This document shows positions 1,746 to 5,609 of a stretch of DNA of 5,625 nucleotides, piece by piece (within the stretch, counting starts at the first letter, position 1; every line of letters starts with the position of its first letter). The notes under the pieces are model-generated. The model was not told the DNA's origin. It searched no databases and worked only from the letters and a program-made list of their open reading frames with translations. The position numbers and the translations under genes are program-made. The stretch lies in the IMG/VR virus record IMGVR_UViG_2660238352_000014, one strand, 5' to 3'. Source of the stretch: a virus (lineage: Duplodnaviria; Heunggongvirae; Uroviricota; Caudoviricetes).

Positions 1746-1771
1746 CGGTGAGTCAGGGTCATCAGTAAAGA

Positions 1772-1779
1772 GCTGGTGG
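1772..1779 (+). other. Chi site (5'-GCTGGTGG-3')
   Basis: Exact octamer match on + strand. Confidence 0.6.
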
Positions 1780-1820
1780 CCCTTTTGTTGTTGTGAGCTT
1801 CCGAGTACGGGAGACGGGGT

Positions 1821-2036
1821 ATGTACCAGATGGAAAAAATCACAACAGGTGTGTCATACACCACGTCAGCGGTGGGAACGGGCTACTGGTTCCTGCAGTT
1901 GCTGGACAGGGTTTCCCCGTCTCAGTGGGCGGCAATAGGCGTGCTGGGGAGTCTGCTGTTTGGGCTGCTGACATATCTGACTAACCTGTATTTCAAAATC
2001 AGAGAGGACCGTCGTAAGGCAGCGCGGGGAGAGTAA
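1821..2036 (+). CDS. S: Pinholin, phage 21 S21 family (71 aa; possible second start at Met4 giving 68 aa)
   Basis: By-memory near-identity to S21 over the core ([46 protein letters not shown]). Two TM segments, the first Gly/Ala/Ser/Thr-rich (SAR-like). SD GGGAGACGGGG precedes the ATG. Sits immediately upstream of a SAR endolysin. Confidence 0.9.
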
Positions 2037-2040
2037 GGCG

Positions 2041-2550
2041 ATGAATAAACAATACGAACTGGTTGTTAAAGGGATAAATAATTACCCGGATAAGATTACT
2101 GTTACTGTAGCGCTGGAAACGGGTGGGTATACGTCACTGTTGTTGCCAAATGTGGTGATTGATCTTGATCGTGTTGAAGGTGCCACGCTGGAATTTTACG
2201 AAGCTGAGGCGAAAAAGAAGGCGAAGCAGTTTTTCATGGATATTGCTGCCGGGTTATGTGAAGGGGATGAACAGTCACAGGAAAAGTGCCTTTGTTCCGA
2301 AGATCGGTATACCATACAAATTAACAATGCATATAACACGATACTGTCAGAAAAAGATGATATCGAATCACGCATTGAAAAACTGGAGAATTGCGTCGTT
2401 GAACTGAATAAAAAACTGTCGACGCTGATGCCTTCTGAAGATGCAAAAAAACGCCGCGATGAGCAGTTCGCGGCGTTTTACGATTATTGCATTGAAGTTA
2501 CTCGCAGGAATTTTGTGAAGGCTTTTGAGGAGAGTAAATCTCTTCAGTAA
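2041..2550 (+). CDS. Hypothetical protein (169 aa), inserted between holin and endolysin; N-terminal beta-rich region, C-terminal coiled-coil-like helices, three Cys (C-x11-C-x-C)
   Basis: ATG 4 nt after the holin stop, using the SD-like sequence at the holin 3' end. GC looks lower than flanking lysis genes (first 60 nt about 30% GC by hand count). No recognisable homolog. Confidence 0.6.
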   Translation: MNKQYELVVKGINNYPDKITVTVALETGGYTSLLLPNVVIDLDRVEGATLEFYEAEAKKKAKQFFMDIAAGLCEGDEQSQEKCLCSEDRYTIQINNAYNTILSEKDDIESRIEKLENCVVELNKKLSTLMPSEDAKKRRDEQFAAFYDYCIEVTRRNFVKAFEESKSLQ

Positions 2551-2758
2551 GCTTAATGGCGGACGCTGCAATTAATTCAGGAAGGTCCGCAAGGTCATCT
2601 GTCAGTGGGAATGATGAAAAATCGGCGGCAGTTCTGTTAAGAATTGCTTTAACTAATTCCTTTTCCTCATCCGGCAACACGTTGATTAGAGCTACGACTG
2701 CTTGCCTGAGTGCGATTAAATCAGCAAAAGTTTGTTTTGGTAGATTTGGATAATCCAT
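2498..2758 (-). CDS. Hypothetical small acidic protein (86 aa), convergent with and overlapping the 3' end of the 169-aa ORF by 53 bp
   Basis: ATG at 2758-2756 (minus) is preceded by a strong SD (minus-strand ACAGAGGTGACT-ATG). The longer ORF-track start at 2830 has no SD. AT-rich codons (CTA, TTA, AGA) match the neighbouring inserted gene. Product is acidic and predicted helical. Confidence 0.5.
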   Translation of the reverse strand: MDYPNLPKQTFADLIALRQAVVALINVLPDEEKELVKAILNRTAADFSSFPLTDDLADLPELIAASAIKLTEEIYSPQKPSQNSCE

Positions 2759-2793
2759 AGTCACCTCTGTGTTTATCAGATTGACATACCCTG

Positions 2794-2812
2794 GCCAGTG
2801 CCCACCACTGGC
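2794..2812. promoter_or_regulatory. Perfect inverted repeat GCCAGTG-cccac-CACTGGC in the divergent intergenic region between the 86-aa minus gene and the endolysin; candidate operator or RNA hairpin
   Basis: 7-bp arms with 5-nt spacer seen directly; a perfect TTGACA hexamer lies at 2781-2786 on the + strand but lacks a convincing -10. Confidence 0.3.
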
Positions 2813-2869
2813 GGGGTGAAGGCTTAACATATCCAGGGATTCGGAACCGATAAATCCTGATAAATATCC

Positions 2870-3403
2870 ATGAACGCAAAAATCAAATACGGCCTGTCAG
2901 CTGCTGTTCTGGCGCTGATTGCTGCAGGCGCGTCTGCTCCTCAGATACTTGACCAGTTTCTGGACGAAAAAGAGGGTAACCACACAACGGCATACCGTGA
3001 TGGTGCAGGTATCTGGACCATCTGCCGTGGTGCCATCATGGTGGATGGCAAACCTGTCGTTCCGGGCATGAAGTTGTCGAAGGAAAAATGCGACCAGGTT
3101 AACGCCATTGAGCGTGATAAAGCGCTGGCGTGGGTGGAGAAAAACATCAGAGTGCTGCTGACCGAACCCCAGAAAGCGGGGATCGCGTCATTCTGTCCGT
3201 ACAACATTGGTCCCGGTAAGTGTTTCCCGTCGACGTTTTACAGACGAATTAATGCTGGTGATCGCAGGGGAGCATGCGAGGCGATTCGCTGGTGGATTAA
3301 GGACGGTGGCAGAGACTGCCGTATTCGCTCAAATAACTGTTACGGTCAGGTATCCCGTCGTGACCAGGAGAGTGCGCTGGCGTGCTGGGGAATTGACAGA
3401 TAA
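2870..3403 (+). CDS. R: SAR endolysin (signal-arrest-release lysozyme, T4-lysozyme/GH24 fold, R21-like), 177 aa
   Basis: N-terminal weakly hydrophobic Gly/Ala-rich SAR domain (GLSAAVLALIAAGASAPQ). Catalytic triad spacing E-x8-D-x5-T in KEGNHTTAYRDGAGIWT. By-memory similarity to phage 21 R (..GVWT.C.G.., ..RINAGD..GACE.IRWW..). Paired with a pinholin. No canonical SD upstream of the ATG. Confidence 0.9.
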   Translation: MNAKIKYGLSAAVLALIAAGASAPQILDQFLDEKEGNHTTAYRDGAGIWTICRGAIMVDGKPVVPGMKLSKEKCDQVNAIERDKALAWVEKNIRVLLTEPQKAGIASFCPYNIGPGKCFPSTFYRRINAGDRRGACEAIRWWIKDGGRDCRIRSNNCYGQVSRRDQESALACWGIDR

Positions 3404-3492
3404 GCAGAATATTTTGCTGAAAAATGCGGTTTGCTCACACGGGCGGATAACACGAAATCCTGCGAACTGACAAAAACTAAGTGAATAAAAGT

Positions 3493-3533
3493 AAAAACCC
3501 CGTTTGTTGGCTGCAAGCGGGGTTTTGTGTTTC
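3493..3533. terminator. Rho-independent terminator, probably bidirectional, downstream of the endolysin gene
   Basis: Stem AACCCCG(TTTG)/(CAAG)CGGGGTT with a ~7-nt loop followed by TTTTGTGTTTC on the + strand; A-rich run upstream gives a U-tract on the minus strand as well. Confidence 0.65.
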
Positions 3534-3559
3534 TGACCTTGGATAAGGCAAGGGAGAAC

Positions 3560-3742
3560 ATGGAAAAGTATAAACGAATTCTGTTGAGGTTGACTATGAA
3601 AAACGGCCTTGAACTGAAAGCGCCTGTAACTGATGACATCAGCAGAGCACTGGCTTTTGCCATTAAGTGGGTGGCGGTCGGTGTTGCTGTGTCCCCGATG
3701 CTGTATGGGCTGGCAAAACTGGTCATTGCGTTGAAATCGTGA
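3560..3742 (+). CDS. Hypothetical small membrane protein (60 aa; basic N-terminus, C-terminal TM helix)
   Basis: ATG at 3560 preceded by AAGGGAGA. The ORF-track start at 3527 is a GTG inside the terminator U-tract and is unlikely. TM segment [28 protein letters not shown]. Confidence 0.45.
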
Positions 3743-3756
3743 AGGGAGGATTAAGC

Positions 3757-3888
3757 ATGTCAGACAAACTCATAACGCTGGCGAAGATCCTCTGTGTAAT
3801 TGTCGGCATTTCATTTTCACTAATGCTGGTTGCTCTTTTTCTTTCCATGGCCTGGATGATGTTGTCTTCGTCGGGGCTGCTGGGGTGA
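3757..3888 (+). CDS. Hypothetical small hydrophobic peptide (43 aa, single TM helix); its stop overlaps the Rz start (GTGA)
   Basis: Strong SD AGGGAGG 6 nt upstream of ATG 3757. TM segment [26 protein letters not shown]. The stop/start overlap with the next gene suggests translational coupling. Confidence 0.4.
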
Positions 3889-4930: not shown

Positions 4931-4944
4931 TATCTGTGCCGGGA

Positions 4945-5277
4945 ATGAAAATGAAAAGAAATCTTCCGTTAATTATTTTGTTGTCTTCTCTGGTTATGGG
5001 CTGTACGCAACATAAAACAGATATGCCCCGACAGTTGGTTAAGGCATTACCACAATATCCGGCCTATGCAGCGGCAAATTATATAAAGGGACGGGTTGAT
5101 GTGAAGTTTGATATTGGTGCTGATGGTACTGTCACCCGAATTGAGTTTATCCGTTCAGAGCCGCACCATTTGTTTGATGAGCAGGTTGTAAAGGCGATGG
5201 CAAAATGGCGATTTGAGAAGGACAGGCCGTGTAAAGGCGTGAAGAAAACGTTTATCTTTAGTCCTTCTGCACCCTGA
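4945..5277 (+). CDS. Probable lipoprotein consisting of a stand-alone TonB C-terminal domain (TonB_C fold); start at ATG 4945 or 4951
   Basis: N-terminal signal peptide with lipobox-like LVMGC. The remainder aligns by eye with the E. coli TonB C-terminal domain: PQYPAYAAANYIKGRVDVKFDIGADGTVTRIEFIRSEPHHLFDEQVVKAMAKWRFEKDRP against TonB [60 protein letters not shown]. There is no TonB N-terminal TM anchor and no proline-rich spacer. Confidence 0.7.
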   Translation: MKMKRNLPLIILLSSLVMGCTQHKTDMPRQLVKALPQYPAYAAANYIKGRVDVKFDIGADGTVTRIEFIRSEPHHLFDEQVVKAMAKWRFEKDRPCKGVKKTFIFSPSAP

Positions 5278-5408: not shown

Positions 5409-5609
5409 TCATTTCTCGTTATTTTTCATGCTGGCCGGGCGCAGATGCGTTGCATCTGTTGCCAGCCTTCTCCTGCAGGCTTCAATAACCCACGCTGAAA
5501 AGTTACCGGACCCTTTATGCTCAAGGGCGATGCTGATCTGTTCAATCATGTGATTGGGGAAACGGATATTGCGGGTTGTGGTTCTGCGGGTCCGGTTTTT
5601 CGATGACAT
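5409..5609 (-). CDS. Small conserved lambdoid-prophage protein (66 aa), ribbon-helix-helix-like; resembles the YlcI/YnfO-type proteins found upstream of terminase genes in E. coli prophages (from memory)
   Basis: Good SD (AAGGAA) upstream of the minus-strand ATG at 5609-5607. The motif TRNIRFPNHMIEQISIALEHKGSGNFSAWVIEACRRRL is consistent with a beta-strand followed by two helices. Convergent with the TonB-C gene. Confidence 0.6.
   Translation of the reverse strand: MSSKNRTRRTTTRNIRFPNHMIEQISIALEHKGSGNFSAWVIEACRRRLATDATHLRPASMKNNEK

What the first reader, a model, noticed from the sequence alone, without database searches (positions are those of the whole stretch)
2041..2869. Lower-GC two-gene convergent cassette inserted exactly between pinholin and SAR endolysin
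In phage-21-type lysis cassettes S and R are normally adjacent. Here a 169-aa ORF starts 4 nt after the holin stop, taking over what looks like the endolysin's translational coupling site, and an 86-aa acidic ORF on the opposite strand converges on it with a 53-bp 3' overlap. Both have AT-rich codon usage unlike the flanking lysis genes, suggesting horizontal acquisition. I recognise neither protein. The convergent overlapping layout, the acidic small partner, and a divergent intergenic region carrying a perfect palindrome suggest a self-contained module: toxin/immunity, abortive-infection or superinfection-exclusion pair, or a lysis-timing modulator. Insertions at the S/R junction occur in some E. 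coli prophages (for example ydfR in Qin, from memory), so this may be a cargo hotspot.
Basis: partly seen in the sequence, partly recalled or inferred. Interest (0 to 1): 0.7.

Follow-up and report, generated by a model that had tools for sequence, protein, structure and literature searches.

The report
Mosaic accessory genes inside prophage lysis cassette
Between the hole-forming and wall-cutting lysis genes of this E. coli prophage lie a common phage gene of the YdfR family and, on the opposite strand, a small gene with its own terminator; both are real and conserved, their function is unknown, and the layout is an ordinary phage cargo arrangement.

Summary
ORF169 (2041-2550, +) starts 4 nt after the pinholin stop. 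ORF86 (2498-2758, -) converges on it with a 53-bp overlap. The interval has 42.7% GC against 53.5% in S plus R.

It is not a single novel two-gene insert. ORF169 is a YdfR-family protein (Pfam DUF1327, E 3e-35). DNA of its N-domain is found in at least 2363 of 5426 complete E. coli genomes. K-12 Qin ydfR is a shorter form lacking 580 bp.

ORF86 belongs to phrog_2572 (function unknown). It is an acidic predicted three-helix protein with a Shine-Dalgarno site. A 12-bp hairpin plus U7 terminator lies 18 nt past its stop, inside ORF169 codons 136-147. Diverged homologs (42-58% identity) keep three features: the convergent overlap, the hairpin (with compensatory changes), and a weak promoter-like motif.

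The cargo between hairpin and promoter is swapped in other phages: a 210-aa gene in O157/Stx1 phages, and orf6 in Stx2 phage 86.

I found no similarity to toxins, defence systems or lysis regulators. My reading is a late YdfR-type gene plus an antisense, bor-like 'moron'. Transcription and function remain untested.

The parts
1821..2036 (+). Class II (phage-21 type) holin S, 71 aa. This is the left flank of the interval.
   Evidence: PF04971, E 9e-33. RefSeq annotates relatives as 'class II holin family protein'.
2041..2550 (+). ORF169, a YdfR-family late gene. Residues 1-80 are the DUF1327 domain (beta-beta-beta-alpha). Residues 74-106 are a low-confidence linker. Residues 101-167 form a helical hairpin. 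The tail KKRRDEQFAAFYDYCIEVTRRNFVKAFEESKSLQ is nearly invariant.
   Evidence: PF07041 scores 120.7 bits against a cutoff of 25. phrog_2091 matches full length at E 1.7e-84. Identity to K-12 YdfR is 39%. The frame is open in the 169, 176, 183 and 211 aa variants. AF2 model pLDDT is 67.
2041..2290 (+). The DUF1327 N-domain as an independently exchanged mosaic block. The right boundary is at 2290.
   Evidence: NCTC9112 and Stx2 phage 86 share 1821-2290 and then diverge. One Stx2a phage lacks this block altogether. The block's DNA is present in at least 2363 of 5426 genomes.
2445..2479 (-). Intrinsic-terminator-like hairpin for the minus-strand gene. The 12-bp perfect stem is 2479-2468 / 2459-2448, with an 8-nt loop, and is followed by U7 in total. 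It lies within ORF169 codons 136-147.
   Evidence: Perfect inverted repeat. Folding energy -22.5 kcal/mol, z = -5.05. Conserved with U7-8 in the E. coli variants. A hairpin 18-23 nt after the stop is present in types A, B and C, with compensatory changes in type B.
2498..2758 (-). ORF86, a small acidic predicted three-helix protein of the phrog_2572 family. No function is known.
   Evidence: phrog_2572 matches 86/86 positions at E 3.6e-50. The ORF is intact in 70 of 81 loci. Diverged homologs P0139 and P0140 were found. It has the lowest pN/pS of the six frames. AF2 predicts helices at 8-27, 30-48 and 56-74, pLDDT 67.
2762..2767 (-). Shine-Dalgarno sequence GAGGTG, ending 3 nt upstream of the ORF86 ATG.
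   Evidence: Read directly from the sequence. AAGGA sits at an equivalent position in types B and C.
2794..2869 (-). Conserved 76-bp linker just upstream of R. On the minus strand it carries a weak promoter-like motif: -35 TTTATC at 2854-2849, a 17-nt spacer, and -10 TATGTT at 2831-2826. It also carries a 7-bp leader hairpin at 2812-2794. The left edge, 2794, is a recurrent recombination boundary.
   Evidence: The linker is shared at 89-99% with phages carrying other cargo. The motif keeps its position in type C, where the spacer is unrelated and R is not adjacent. It falls below the threshold of the consensus scan. The promoter is therefore inferred, not shown.
2491..2793 (-). The exchangeable cargo segment (ORF86 plus a short leader). 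O157/Stx1 phages carry a 777-bp segment here instead, encoding a 210-aa minus-strand protein.
   Evidence: Boundaries. The 210-aa protein has full-length homologs at 53-65% identity.
2870..3403 (+). SAR-type endolysin R, 177 aa. This is the right flank of the interval.
   Evidence: PF00959, E 3.5e-23. RefSeq annotates relatives as 'lysozyme'.

Best explanation
The S-R interval is a mosaic accessory region made of two units that overlap physically.

Unit 1, ORF169. This is a YdfR-family late gene and a regular occupant of this junction. It starts 4 nt after the holin stop, so it is transcribed with the lysis genes from the late promoter and is probably translated by coupling to S (inferred from position). 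Its N-terminal DUF1327 domain is homologous to residues 1-72 of K-12 YdfR. Published two-hybrid and co-purification experiments report that those residues bind the catalytic half of RNase E, and that YdfR carries RNA with it. ORF169 therefore most likely acts on RNase E or RNA late in infection (inferred by homology only). Its C-terminal half is a helical hairpin.

Unit 2, ORF86. This is an oppositely oriented, self-contained transcription unit of the 'moron' type, laid out like lambda/DLP12 bor. It consists of:
- a weak sigma-70-like promoter in the 76-bp linker just upstream of R (predicted; transcription start near 2819);
- a short leader hairpin and a Shine-Dalgarno site;
- an 86-codon ORF for an acidic three-helix cytoplasmic protein;
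- an intrinsic terminator embedded in ORF169 codons 136-147.

Because ORF86 is antisense to the late operon, it can only be made from its own promoter. That most likely happens in the lysogen. Convergent late transcription would then be expected to silence it during lytic growth (inferred).

The segment between terminator and promoter behaves as a slot in which different minus-strand cargo genes are exchanged among lambdoid phages. What the ORF86 protein does is unknown. My best guess is a small binding or inhibitor protein that benefits the lysogen.
For: Family and position of ORF169:
- PF07041 at E 3e-35, and phrog_2091 at full length.
- K-12 Qin has essQ, then 4 nt, then ydfR, then rrrQ. 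Identity to YdfR is 39%.
- The YdfR 1-72 interaction with RNase E and the RNA co-purification are reported in PMC13232886.

Mosaicism and slot:
- Boundaries lie at 2290, 2447/2490 and 2794.
- Alternative cargo: a 210-aa gene with homologs at 53-65% identity, found next to sodC in a Salmonella prophage; and orf6 in Stx2 phage 86.
- K-12 ydfR lacks 580 bp relative to type B.

Terminator:
- Perfect 12-bp stem plus U7, z = -5.
- Conserved in the E. coli variants.
- Retained 18-23 nt after the stop in types A, B and C. In type B the stem is kept by compensatory changes even though the overlapping amino acids change from KRRDE..AAF to RHHEN..VAF.

ORF86 as a coding gene:
- Lowest pN/pS of the six frames.
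- Intact in 70 of 81 loci.
- A Shine-Dalgarno site is conserved in position.
- Homologs at 42-58% identity match phrog_2572 at E 1e-27 to 1e-40.

Promoter motif: it keeps its position in type C, where the spacer is unrelated and R is absent.

The bor precedent in the same kind of cassette is shown by DLP12 borD.
Against: - No promoter upstream of ORF86 reaches the consensus-scan threshold. The motif matches only 7 of 12 positions. No transcript data were available.
- In type B the hairpin is not followed by a U-run, so it may not terminate transcription there.
- The plus-strand frame antisense to ORF86 (2556-2753) is also open, and its pN/pS is only slightly higher at 0.43-0.65. The strand assignment therefore rests on several moderate clues.
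- Within type A, divergence is too low to show purifying selection: 12 differences, dN/dS about 0.6. Polymorphic sites split 14 synonymous to 20 nonsynonymous.
- Seven of 81 loci have ACG in place of the ATG start.
- The RNase E link rests on one study of a 39%-identical protein. In that study, overexpression hardly changed the transcriptome.
- RefSeq annotates ORF169-type genes as partial pseudogenes.
Confidence: 0.55

Rival explanations
1. The helical C-terminal part of ORF169 and ORF86 form a functional two-protein pair. One version: a late effector paired with an antagonist made in the lysogen, as in toxin/antitoxin or effector/immunity systems. Another version: two partners of a lysogeny-versus-lysis switch. 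On this view the convergent overlap enforces mutually exclusive expression.
For: The pair is kept as a convergent overlapping unit (53-59 bp) in three diverged types. In type C the partner is a free-standing 73-aa helical protein with no DUF1327 domain. It is translationally coupled to Rz, and the pair lies after Rz rather than between S and R. The tail and the ORF86 family have diverged to a similar degree.
Against: Physical overlap alone makes the two inseparable by recombination, so co-inheritance does not need a functional link. O157/Stx1 and Stx2a phages keep the helical part and the hairpin but carry a different cargo gene in place of ORF86. No toxin, antitoxin or defence family matches either protein. 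K-12 ydfR overexpression caused no growth arrest, although that protein lacks the helical part.
Confidence: 0.22
2. The interval modulates lysis timing. Either protein might act on the pinholin or the SAR endolysin. Alternatively, the minus-strand RNA might pair with the late S-R transcript and change R expression.
For: The genes lie inside the lysis cassette. ORF169 is placed for translational coupling to S. The ORF86 transcript would be complementary to about 100 nt of the late mRNA between S and R. R has no obvious Shine-Dalgarno site after the linker.
Against: Neither protein has a hydrophobic segment or signal sequence (GRAVY -0.51 and -0.06), unlike known membrane or periplasmic antiholins. 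The type C module sits after Rz next to the terminase gene, away from S and R. The same slot carries unrelated cargo in other phages. K-12 Qin and DLP12 cassettes lack the module.
Confidence: 0.1
3. ORF86 is not an expressed gene. On this view the region is conserved because it spread recently by recombination, or because the plus strand is the functional one (a 65-aa frame at 2556-2753, or simply R's 5' leader). The hairpin would then serve the late transcript.
For: The plus-strand frame is open in all three types, and its pN/pS is only moderately higher. Type A copies are 95% identical where their flanks are 79% identical, which indicates recent spread. No consensus promoter was found. The family is restricted to Escherichia-type prophages.
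Against: The ORF86 frame has the lowest pN/pS in every comparison, and the most third-position changes. A Shine-Dalgarno site and start codon are conserved in position despite sequence change. The U-run follows the hairpin on the minus strand (U7-8), with only U4 on the plus strand. The ORF86 sequence gives a coherent three-helix model. The antisense product is basic (pI 10.3) and looks low-complexity and Ser/Ala-rich by eye. RefSeq and PHROGs both call ORF86.
Confidence: 0.1

Closest known systems
YdfR of the E. coli K-12 Qin prophage (Pfam DUF1327, PF07041)
   Same: Same family for residues 1-80 (E 3e-35; 39% identity). Same position and same 4-nt spacing after a class II holin, upstream of a lysozyme.
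   Different: K-12 YdfR has 103 aa and overlaps rrrQ directly. Relative to type B it lacks a 580-bp stretch that holds the helical C-terminal half, the minus-strand gene and the linker. RNase E binding has been tested only for K-12 YdfR.
bor of phage lambda / borD of DLP12, the classic antisense 'moron' in a lysis region
   Same: A small gene oriented against the late operon inside or next to the lysis cassette. It has its own terminator, a composition unlike its neighbours, and is present or absent among related phages. In type C the module sits in the bor position, after Rz.
   Different: From my own knowledge, Bor is an outer-membrane lipoprotein with a known phenotype (serum resistance) and a demonstrated lysogen promoter. 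ORF86 has no signal sequence, no known function and only a predicted weak promoter. Its terminator lies inside the coding sequence of the converging gene.
phrog_2572 and phrog_2091 (PHROGs families of unknown function)
   Same: ORF86 and ORF169 match these families over their full length.
   Different: The families carry no functional annotation, and their entries returned here give no function or description. I found no paper describing them.
Phage-encoded RNase E modulators (T7 gp0.7, T4 Srd, phiKZ Dip; named from my own knowledge)
   Same: If the YdfR result carries over, ORF169 would be a phage protein that docks on RNase E.
   Different: I did not test sequence or fold similarity to any of these proteins here. 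The known examples act early or throughout infection and are not part of lysis cassettes.

Membership tests
YdfR / DUF1327 (PF07041) | Significant match to the Pfam model above its gathering score | tested here: met
   ORF169 scores 120.7 bits against a cutoff of 25, with residues 1-80 covering model positions 1-80 of 93.
YdfR / DUF1327 (PF07041) | Located directly downstream of a class II holin and upstream of the lysozyme in lambdoid prophages | tested here: met
   Seen in the window, K-12 Qin, CFT073, phage 2H10 and Stx phages.
YdfR / DUF1327 (PF07041) | Binding of the N-terminal domain to the catalytic half of RNase E (reported for K-12 YdfR residues 1-72) | not testable with these tools
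Moron (autonomous cargo transcription unit in a phage operon) | Present or absent, or exchanged, between otherwise collinear related phages, with sharp boundaries | tested here: met
   Boundaries at 2490/2491 and 2793/2794. Alternative cargo in O157/Stx1 phages and in Stx2 phage 86. Absent from K-12 Qin.
Moron (autonomous cargo transcription unit in a phage operon) | Base composition unlike the flanking genes | tested here: met
   GC is 41.8% and GC3 is 0.35 for ORF86, against 53.5% GC for S plus R. ORF169 is also low in GC, so the contrast is not specific to ORF86.
Moron (autonomous cargo transcription unit in a phage operon) | Own factor-independent terminator | tested here: met
   A 12-bp GC-rich stem plus U7 lies 18 nt after the stop codon, with z = -5. 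It is conserved and shows compensatory changes. This is a prediction; termination was not measured.
Moron (autonomous cargo transcription unit in a phage operon) | Own promoter, active in the lysogen | tested here: inconclusive
   The motif TTTATC-N17-TATGTT is conserved in position across types A to C. It matches only 7 of 12 consensus positions and falls below the scan threshold. No expression data were available.
Known anti-phage defence, abortive-infection or toxin-antitoxin systems | Match of either protein to a model of a known or candidate defence or toxin-antitoxin component | tested here: not met
   PADLOC gives only a non-significant hit (E 0.0024 to PDC-S11) for ORF169, and nothing for ORF86, its homologs or the 210-aa cargo. 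Pfam shows no toxin or antitoxin domain.
Type I toxin-antitoxin (antisense RNA plus small hydrophobic toxin) | Small hydrophobic membrane toxin encoded opposite an antisense RNA | tested here: not met
   Both products are hydrophilic and acidic (GRAVY -0.51 and -0.06; pI 4.8 and 4.3), and are predicted to be soluble helical or alpha/beta proteins.
Lysis regulators (antiholins such as S21-71, P1 LydB, T4 RI; named from my own knowledge) | Membrane or periplasmic location, or sequence relation to a known antiholin | tested here: not met
   No signal peptide or transmembrane stretch is visible by inspection of the sequences and models. No family match was found. No dedicated transmembrane predictor was run.

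The most novel reading that the evidence does not exclude
The late helical protein (here fused to an RNase E-binding YdfR domain) and the antisense three-helix protein form a previously unrecognised effector/antagonist pair carried in lysis cassettes. ORF86, made in the lysogen, would neutralise leaky ORF169. Convergent late transcription through a terminator shared inside the coding sequence would flip the balance at induction, releasing a phage factor that reprograms RNase E-dependent RNA decay just before lysis.
Probability: 0.08. Interest if true: 0.65.

Novelty: new member of a known kind. Interest (0 to 1): 0.33.

Why it matters
Three practical points follow.

- RefSeq annotates the long YdfR-type genes as partial pseudogenes. 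Across the 169 to 211 aa variants they keep an open frame, so they are probably real genes.
- The much-used K-12 ydfR appears to be a cut-down form. It lacks the helical half and the converging gene. This bears on how the recent RNase E interaction data for YdfR should be read.
- The S/R junction of phage-21-type cassettes, including those of Shiga-toxin phages, contains a defined slot: a promoter-bearing linker on one side and a terminator inside a coding sequence on the other. Unrelated minus-strand cargo genes are exchanged there, which makes it a compact place to look for lysogen-expressed phage genes.

None of this is surprising in kind for lambdoid phages. Real interest would come only if ORF86 or its pairing with the helical protein turned out to have a clear phenotype.

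Tried and rejected
Searches that gave no function for ORF86:
- Pfam: only DUF1823 at E 0.023, below threshold.
- NCBIfam and PADLOC.
- PDB sequence profiles: best relevant hit AcrIIC4 at E 0.23, not significant.
- BFVD: no hit at E 0.001 or better.

Other searches: Rfam found nothing in the interval. Literature searches by accession or PHROG number found nothing. 'DUF1327' appears in one paper, only in passing.

Considered and rejected or set aside:
- dN/dS within type A is uninformative, with only 12 differences.
- Two TPR-CHAT proteins (P0141, P0142) match ORF86 in 5-6 repeated stretches. I treated this as a repeat-like helical resemblance, not as homology.
- The 110-aa extended reading of ORF86 is rejected. 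The extension is absent in Qin-type copies, and its ATG lies inside the predicted -10 element.
- The intergenic palindrome is rejected as a significant signal.
- The genome-contig scan returned only one E. coli locus.
Full report
**1. The observation**

The window is a lambdoid late region. It holds, in order:
- the 3' part of a DUF6645 esterase-like gene;
- DUF1378 and DUF826 genes;
- a phage-21-type holin at 1821-2036;
- the interval in question;
- a lysozyme at 2870-3403;
- two small ORFs;
- Rz and Rz1.

The closest public sequences are an E. coli chromosome (99.1% identity) and the temperate phage PhiR12_1 (97.6%).

ORF169 (2041-2550) starts 4 nt after the holin stop. ORF86 (2498-2758, minus strand) overlaps its 3' end by 53 bp. 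The interval has 42.7% GC, against 53.5% for S plus R, and ORF86 is acidic.

Two details need correction. First, the palindrome in the divergent intergenic region has only 7-bp arms and is not significant. Second, S and R are not 'normally adjacent' in E. coli. They are adjacent in DLP12, but DNA of the DUF1327 N-domain is found in at least 2363 of 5426 complete genomes.

**2. The plus-strand gene**

ORF169 is a YdfR-family protein. Its residues 1-80 match Pfam DUF1327 at E 3e-35, and the whole protein matches phrog_2091.

In K-12 Qin the order is essQ, 4 nt, ydfR, then rrrQ overlapping ydfR by 4 nt.

The family has many length variants, from 103 to 296 aa. In all the variants I examined the frame is open. 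RefSeq nevertheless labels the long forms as partial pseudogenes.

The AlphaFold model has a mean pLDDT of 67. It shows a three-strand-plus-helix N-domain, an unstructured linker and a C-terminal helical hairpin. Fold and PDB searches were uninformative.

The only experimental lead is a 2026 paper. It reports that residues 1-72 of K-12 YdfR bind the N-terminal catalytic half of RNase E, by two-hybrid and co-purification. YdfR preparations carry RNA, and overexpression changes few transcripts (PMC13232886). ORF169 is 39% identical to YdfR over this domain.

**3. The minus-strand gene**

ORF86 matches phrog_2572 over its full length and has no Pfam, NCBIfam or PADLOC match.

A word-indexed search found only E. 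coli proteins at 81% identity or more. The exhaustive HMMER search added two true relatives, P0139 (93 aa) and P0140 (89 aa). Both match phrog_2572 at E 3.5e-27 and 8.5e-40.

Evidence that the ORF86 frame is the coding one:
- Among 81 related loci, ORF86 is intact in 70. It has ACG in place of ATG in 7, where a GTG two codons upstream remains available. In 4 no stop codon was found within the stretch examined.
- In comparisons between the three diverged types, the ORF86 frame has the lowest pN/pS of the six frames (0.32-0.52 uncorrected). It also has the most third-position changes.
- The margin is modest: the open antisense frame scores 0.43-0.65.
- Supporting clues are a Shine-Dalgarno site and start codon conserved in position, and a coherent three-helix model at pLDDT 67.

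Structure searches gave nothing specific.

**4. The hairpin**

A perfect 12-bp inverted repeat lies at 2448-2459 / 2468-2479, inside ORF169 codons 136-147 (KKRRDEQFAAFY). On the minus strand it begins 18 nt after the ORF86 stop and is followed by seven U in total. It folds at -22.5 kcal/mol, with z = -5. On the plus strand only four U follow it.

The stem and the U7-8 run are kept in the E. coli variants. A perfect 8-12-bp stem sits 18-23 nt after the stop in all three diverged types. In type B the stem is CGCCACC/GGTGGCG instead of CGCCGC/GCGGCG. The overlapping codons change from KRRDE..AAF to RHHEN..VAF, so the pairing is preserved while the protein changes.

I read this as the terminator or 3' end structure of the minus-strand gene. 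In type B no U-run follows the stem, which weakens that reading for type B.

**5. Promoter**

The consensus scan finds no promoter upstream of ORF86 or its homologs.

There is a positionally conserved motif on the minus strand: TTTATC, 17 nt, TATGTT (2854-2849 and 2831-2826). In type C it is CTTATC, 17 nt, TATTGT, with an unrelated spacer and no R gene nearby. There the similarity to the window begins at the point that corresponds to R's start codon.

This fits a weak promoter that travels with the gene. It is an inference, not a result.

**6. Mosaic structure**

Pairwise comparisons give sharp boundaries:
- O157:H7 and Stx1 phages share 1821-2490 and 2794-3403. They replace 2491-2793 with 777 bp that encode a 210-aa minus-strand protein.
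- That 210-aa protein has full-length homologs at 53-65% identity. One of them lies beside sodC in a Salmonella prophage remnant. It matches no Pfam, PHROG or PADLOC family.
- Stx2 phage 86 shares 1821-2290 and 2794-3403, and carries orf5 (268 aa) and a minus-strand orf6 (104 aa) in between.
- NCTC9112 exchanges only 2291-2446, giving a 211-aa protein.
- One Stx2a phage has the helical part directly after S, with no DUF1327 domain.
- K-12 Qin matches type B on both sides of a 580-bp gap. The gap covers the helical half, the minus-strand gene and nearly all of the linker.

The cargo unit is the minus-strand gene, which lies between a conserved hairpin and a conserved linker.

**7. The pair**

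Three diverged versions keep a convergent 3' overlap of 53-59 bp between an ORF86-family gene and a gene ending in a homologous helical tail:
- Type A: this window and the Qin-like prophages.
- Type B: S, a YdfR-family gene of 174 or 243 aa, a minus-strand ORF of 93 aa, then R.
- Type C: a free-standing 73-aa helical protein coupled to Rz, with the pair lying between Rz and a DUF1441 terminase gene.

This is the best argument for a functional link between the two proteins. But the overlap itself prevents their separation by recombination. And the O157 and Stx2a forms keep the helical part with other cargo. I therefore rank the functional-pair idea second.

**8. Verdict**

The interval holds a YdfR-family late gene plus an antisense cargo unit laid out like bor (borD in DLP12). 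Both gene families are already in databases as proteins of unknown function.

No evidence supports toxin/immunity, abortive infection, exclusion or lysis-timing roles, and none of these is excluded by experiment.

- Shown here: gene identities, conservation, mosaic boundaries, and the conserved hairpin.
- Inferred: transcription of ORF86 from its own promoter in the lysogen, its silencing by late transcription, and RNase E or RNA binding by ORF169.
- Unknown: what ORF86 does.

Noticed in passing
L004 (K-12 Qin, essQ-ydfR-rrrQ) compared with L107: K-12 ydfR (103 aa) matches type B prophages on both sides of a 580-bp gap. The gap holds the helical C-terminal half, the ORF86-family gene and most of the linker. 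The last residues of K-12 YdfR (HKYL) are encoded across this junction. K-12 therefore appears to carry a deletion derivative.
   Followed up: partly
window 3560-3742 and 3757-3888 (+): Two small ORFs (60 and 43 aa) lie between the endolysin and Rz. RefSeq relatives annotate them as hypothetical, and they have no Pfam match. In Stx phages the same position holds an antirepressor-like gene, so this looks like a second accessory slot in the cassette.
   Followed up: partly
window 4936-5277 (+): A 113-aa ORF whose N-terminal sequence looks like a lipoprotein signal peptide (by eye). It has a TonB C-terminal domain (PF03544, E 1.4e-14), lies in a low-GC stretch (about 39-45%) downstream of Rz, and is oriented with the late genes. 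It is probably another cargo gene.
   Followed up: partly
window 5409-5609 (-): A 66-aa DUF3950 protein (YnfO-like, PF13132), as also found in K-12 Qin.
   Followed up: partly
window 1755-1783 (+): A terminator-like stem-loop (12 pairs, followed by a T-rich run) lies between the DUF826 gene and the holin, inside the late operon.
   Followed up: no
P0141, P0142 (hits): ORF86 residues 13-75 align to 5-6 repeated stretches of two large TPR-CHAT proteins at 33-35% identity. The first two helices of ORF86 may resemble a TPR-like repeat unit. I treated this as resemblance, not homology.
   Followed up: partly
L005 760-1461 (-), L110 2501-3133: The 210-aa alternative cargo of O157/Stx1 phages is not annotated in the RefSeq O157 record I examined. 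It has full-length homologs at 53-65% identity, and one lies next to sodC in a Salmonella prophage remnant. It matches no Pfam, PHROG or PADLOC family.
   Followed up: partly
window 2556-2753 (+): A 65-aa frame fully antisense to ORF86 stays open in all three diverged module types. Its product is basic (pI 10.3) and looks Ser/Ala-rich. It is probably a by-product of ORF86's composition, but I have not formally excluded it as a gene.
   Followed up: partly
window 3470-3558 (-): A weak Rfam match to the rimP leader (27.5 bits against a gathering score of 47; E 0.24). This is most likely chance.
   Followed up: no
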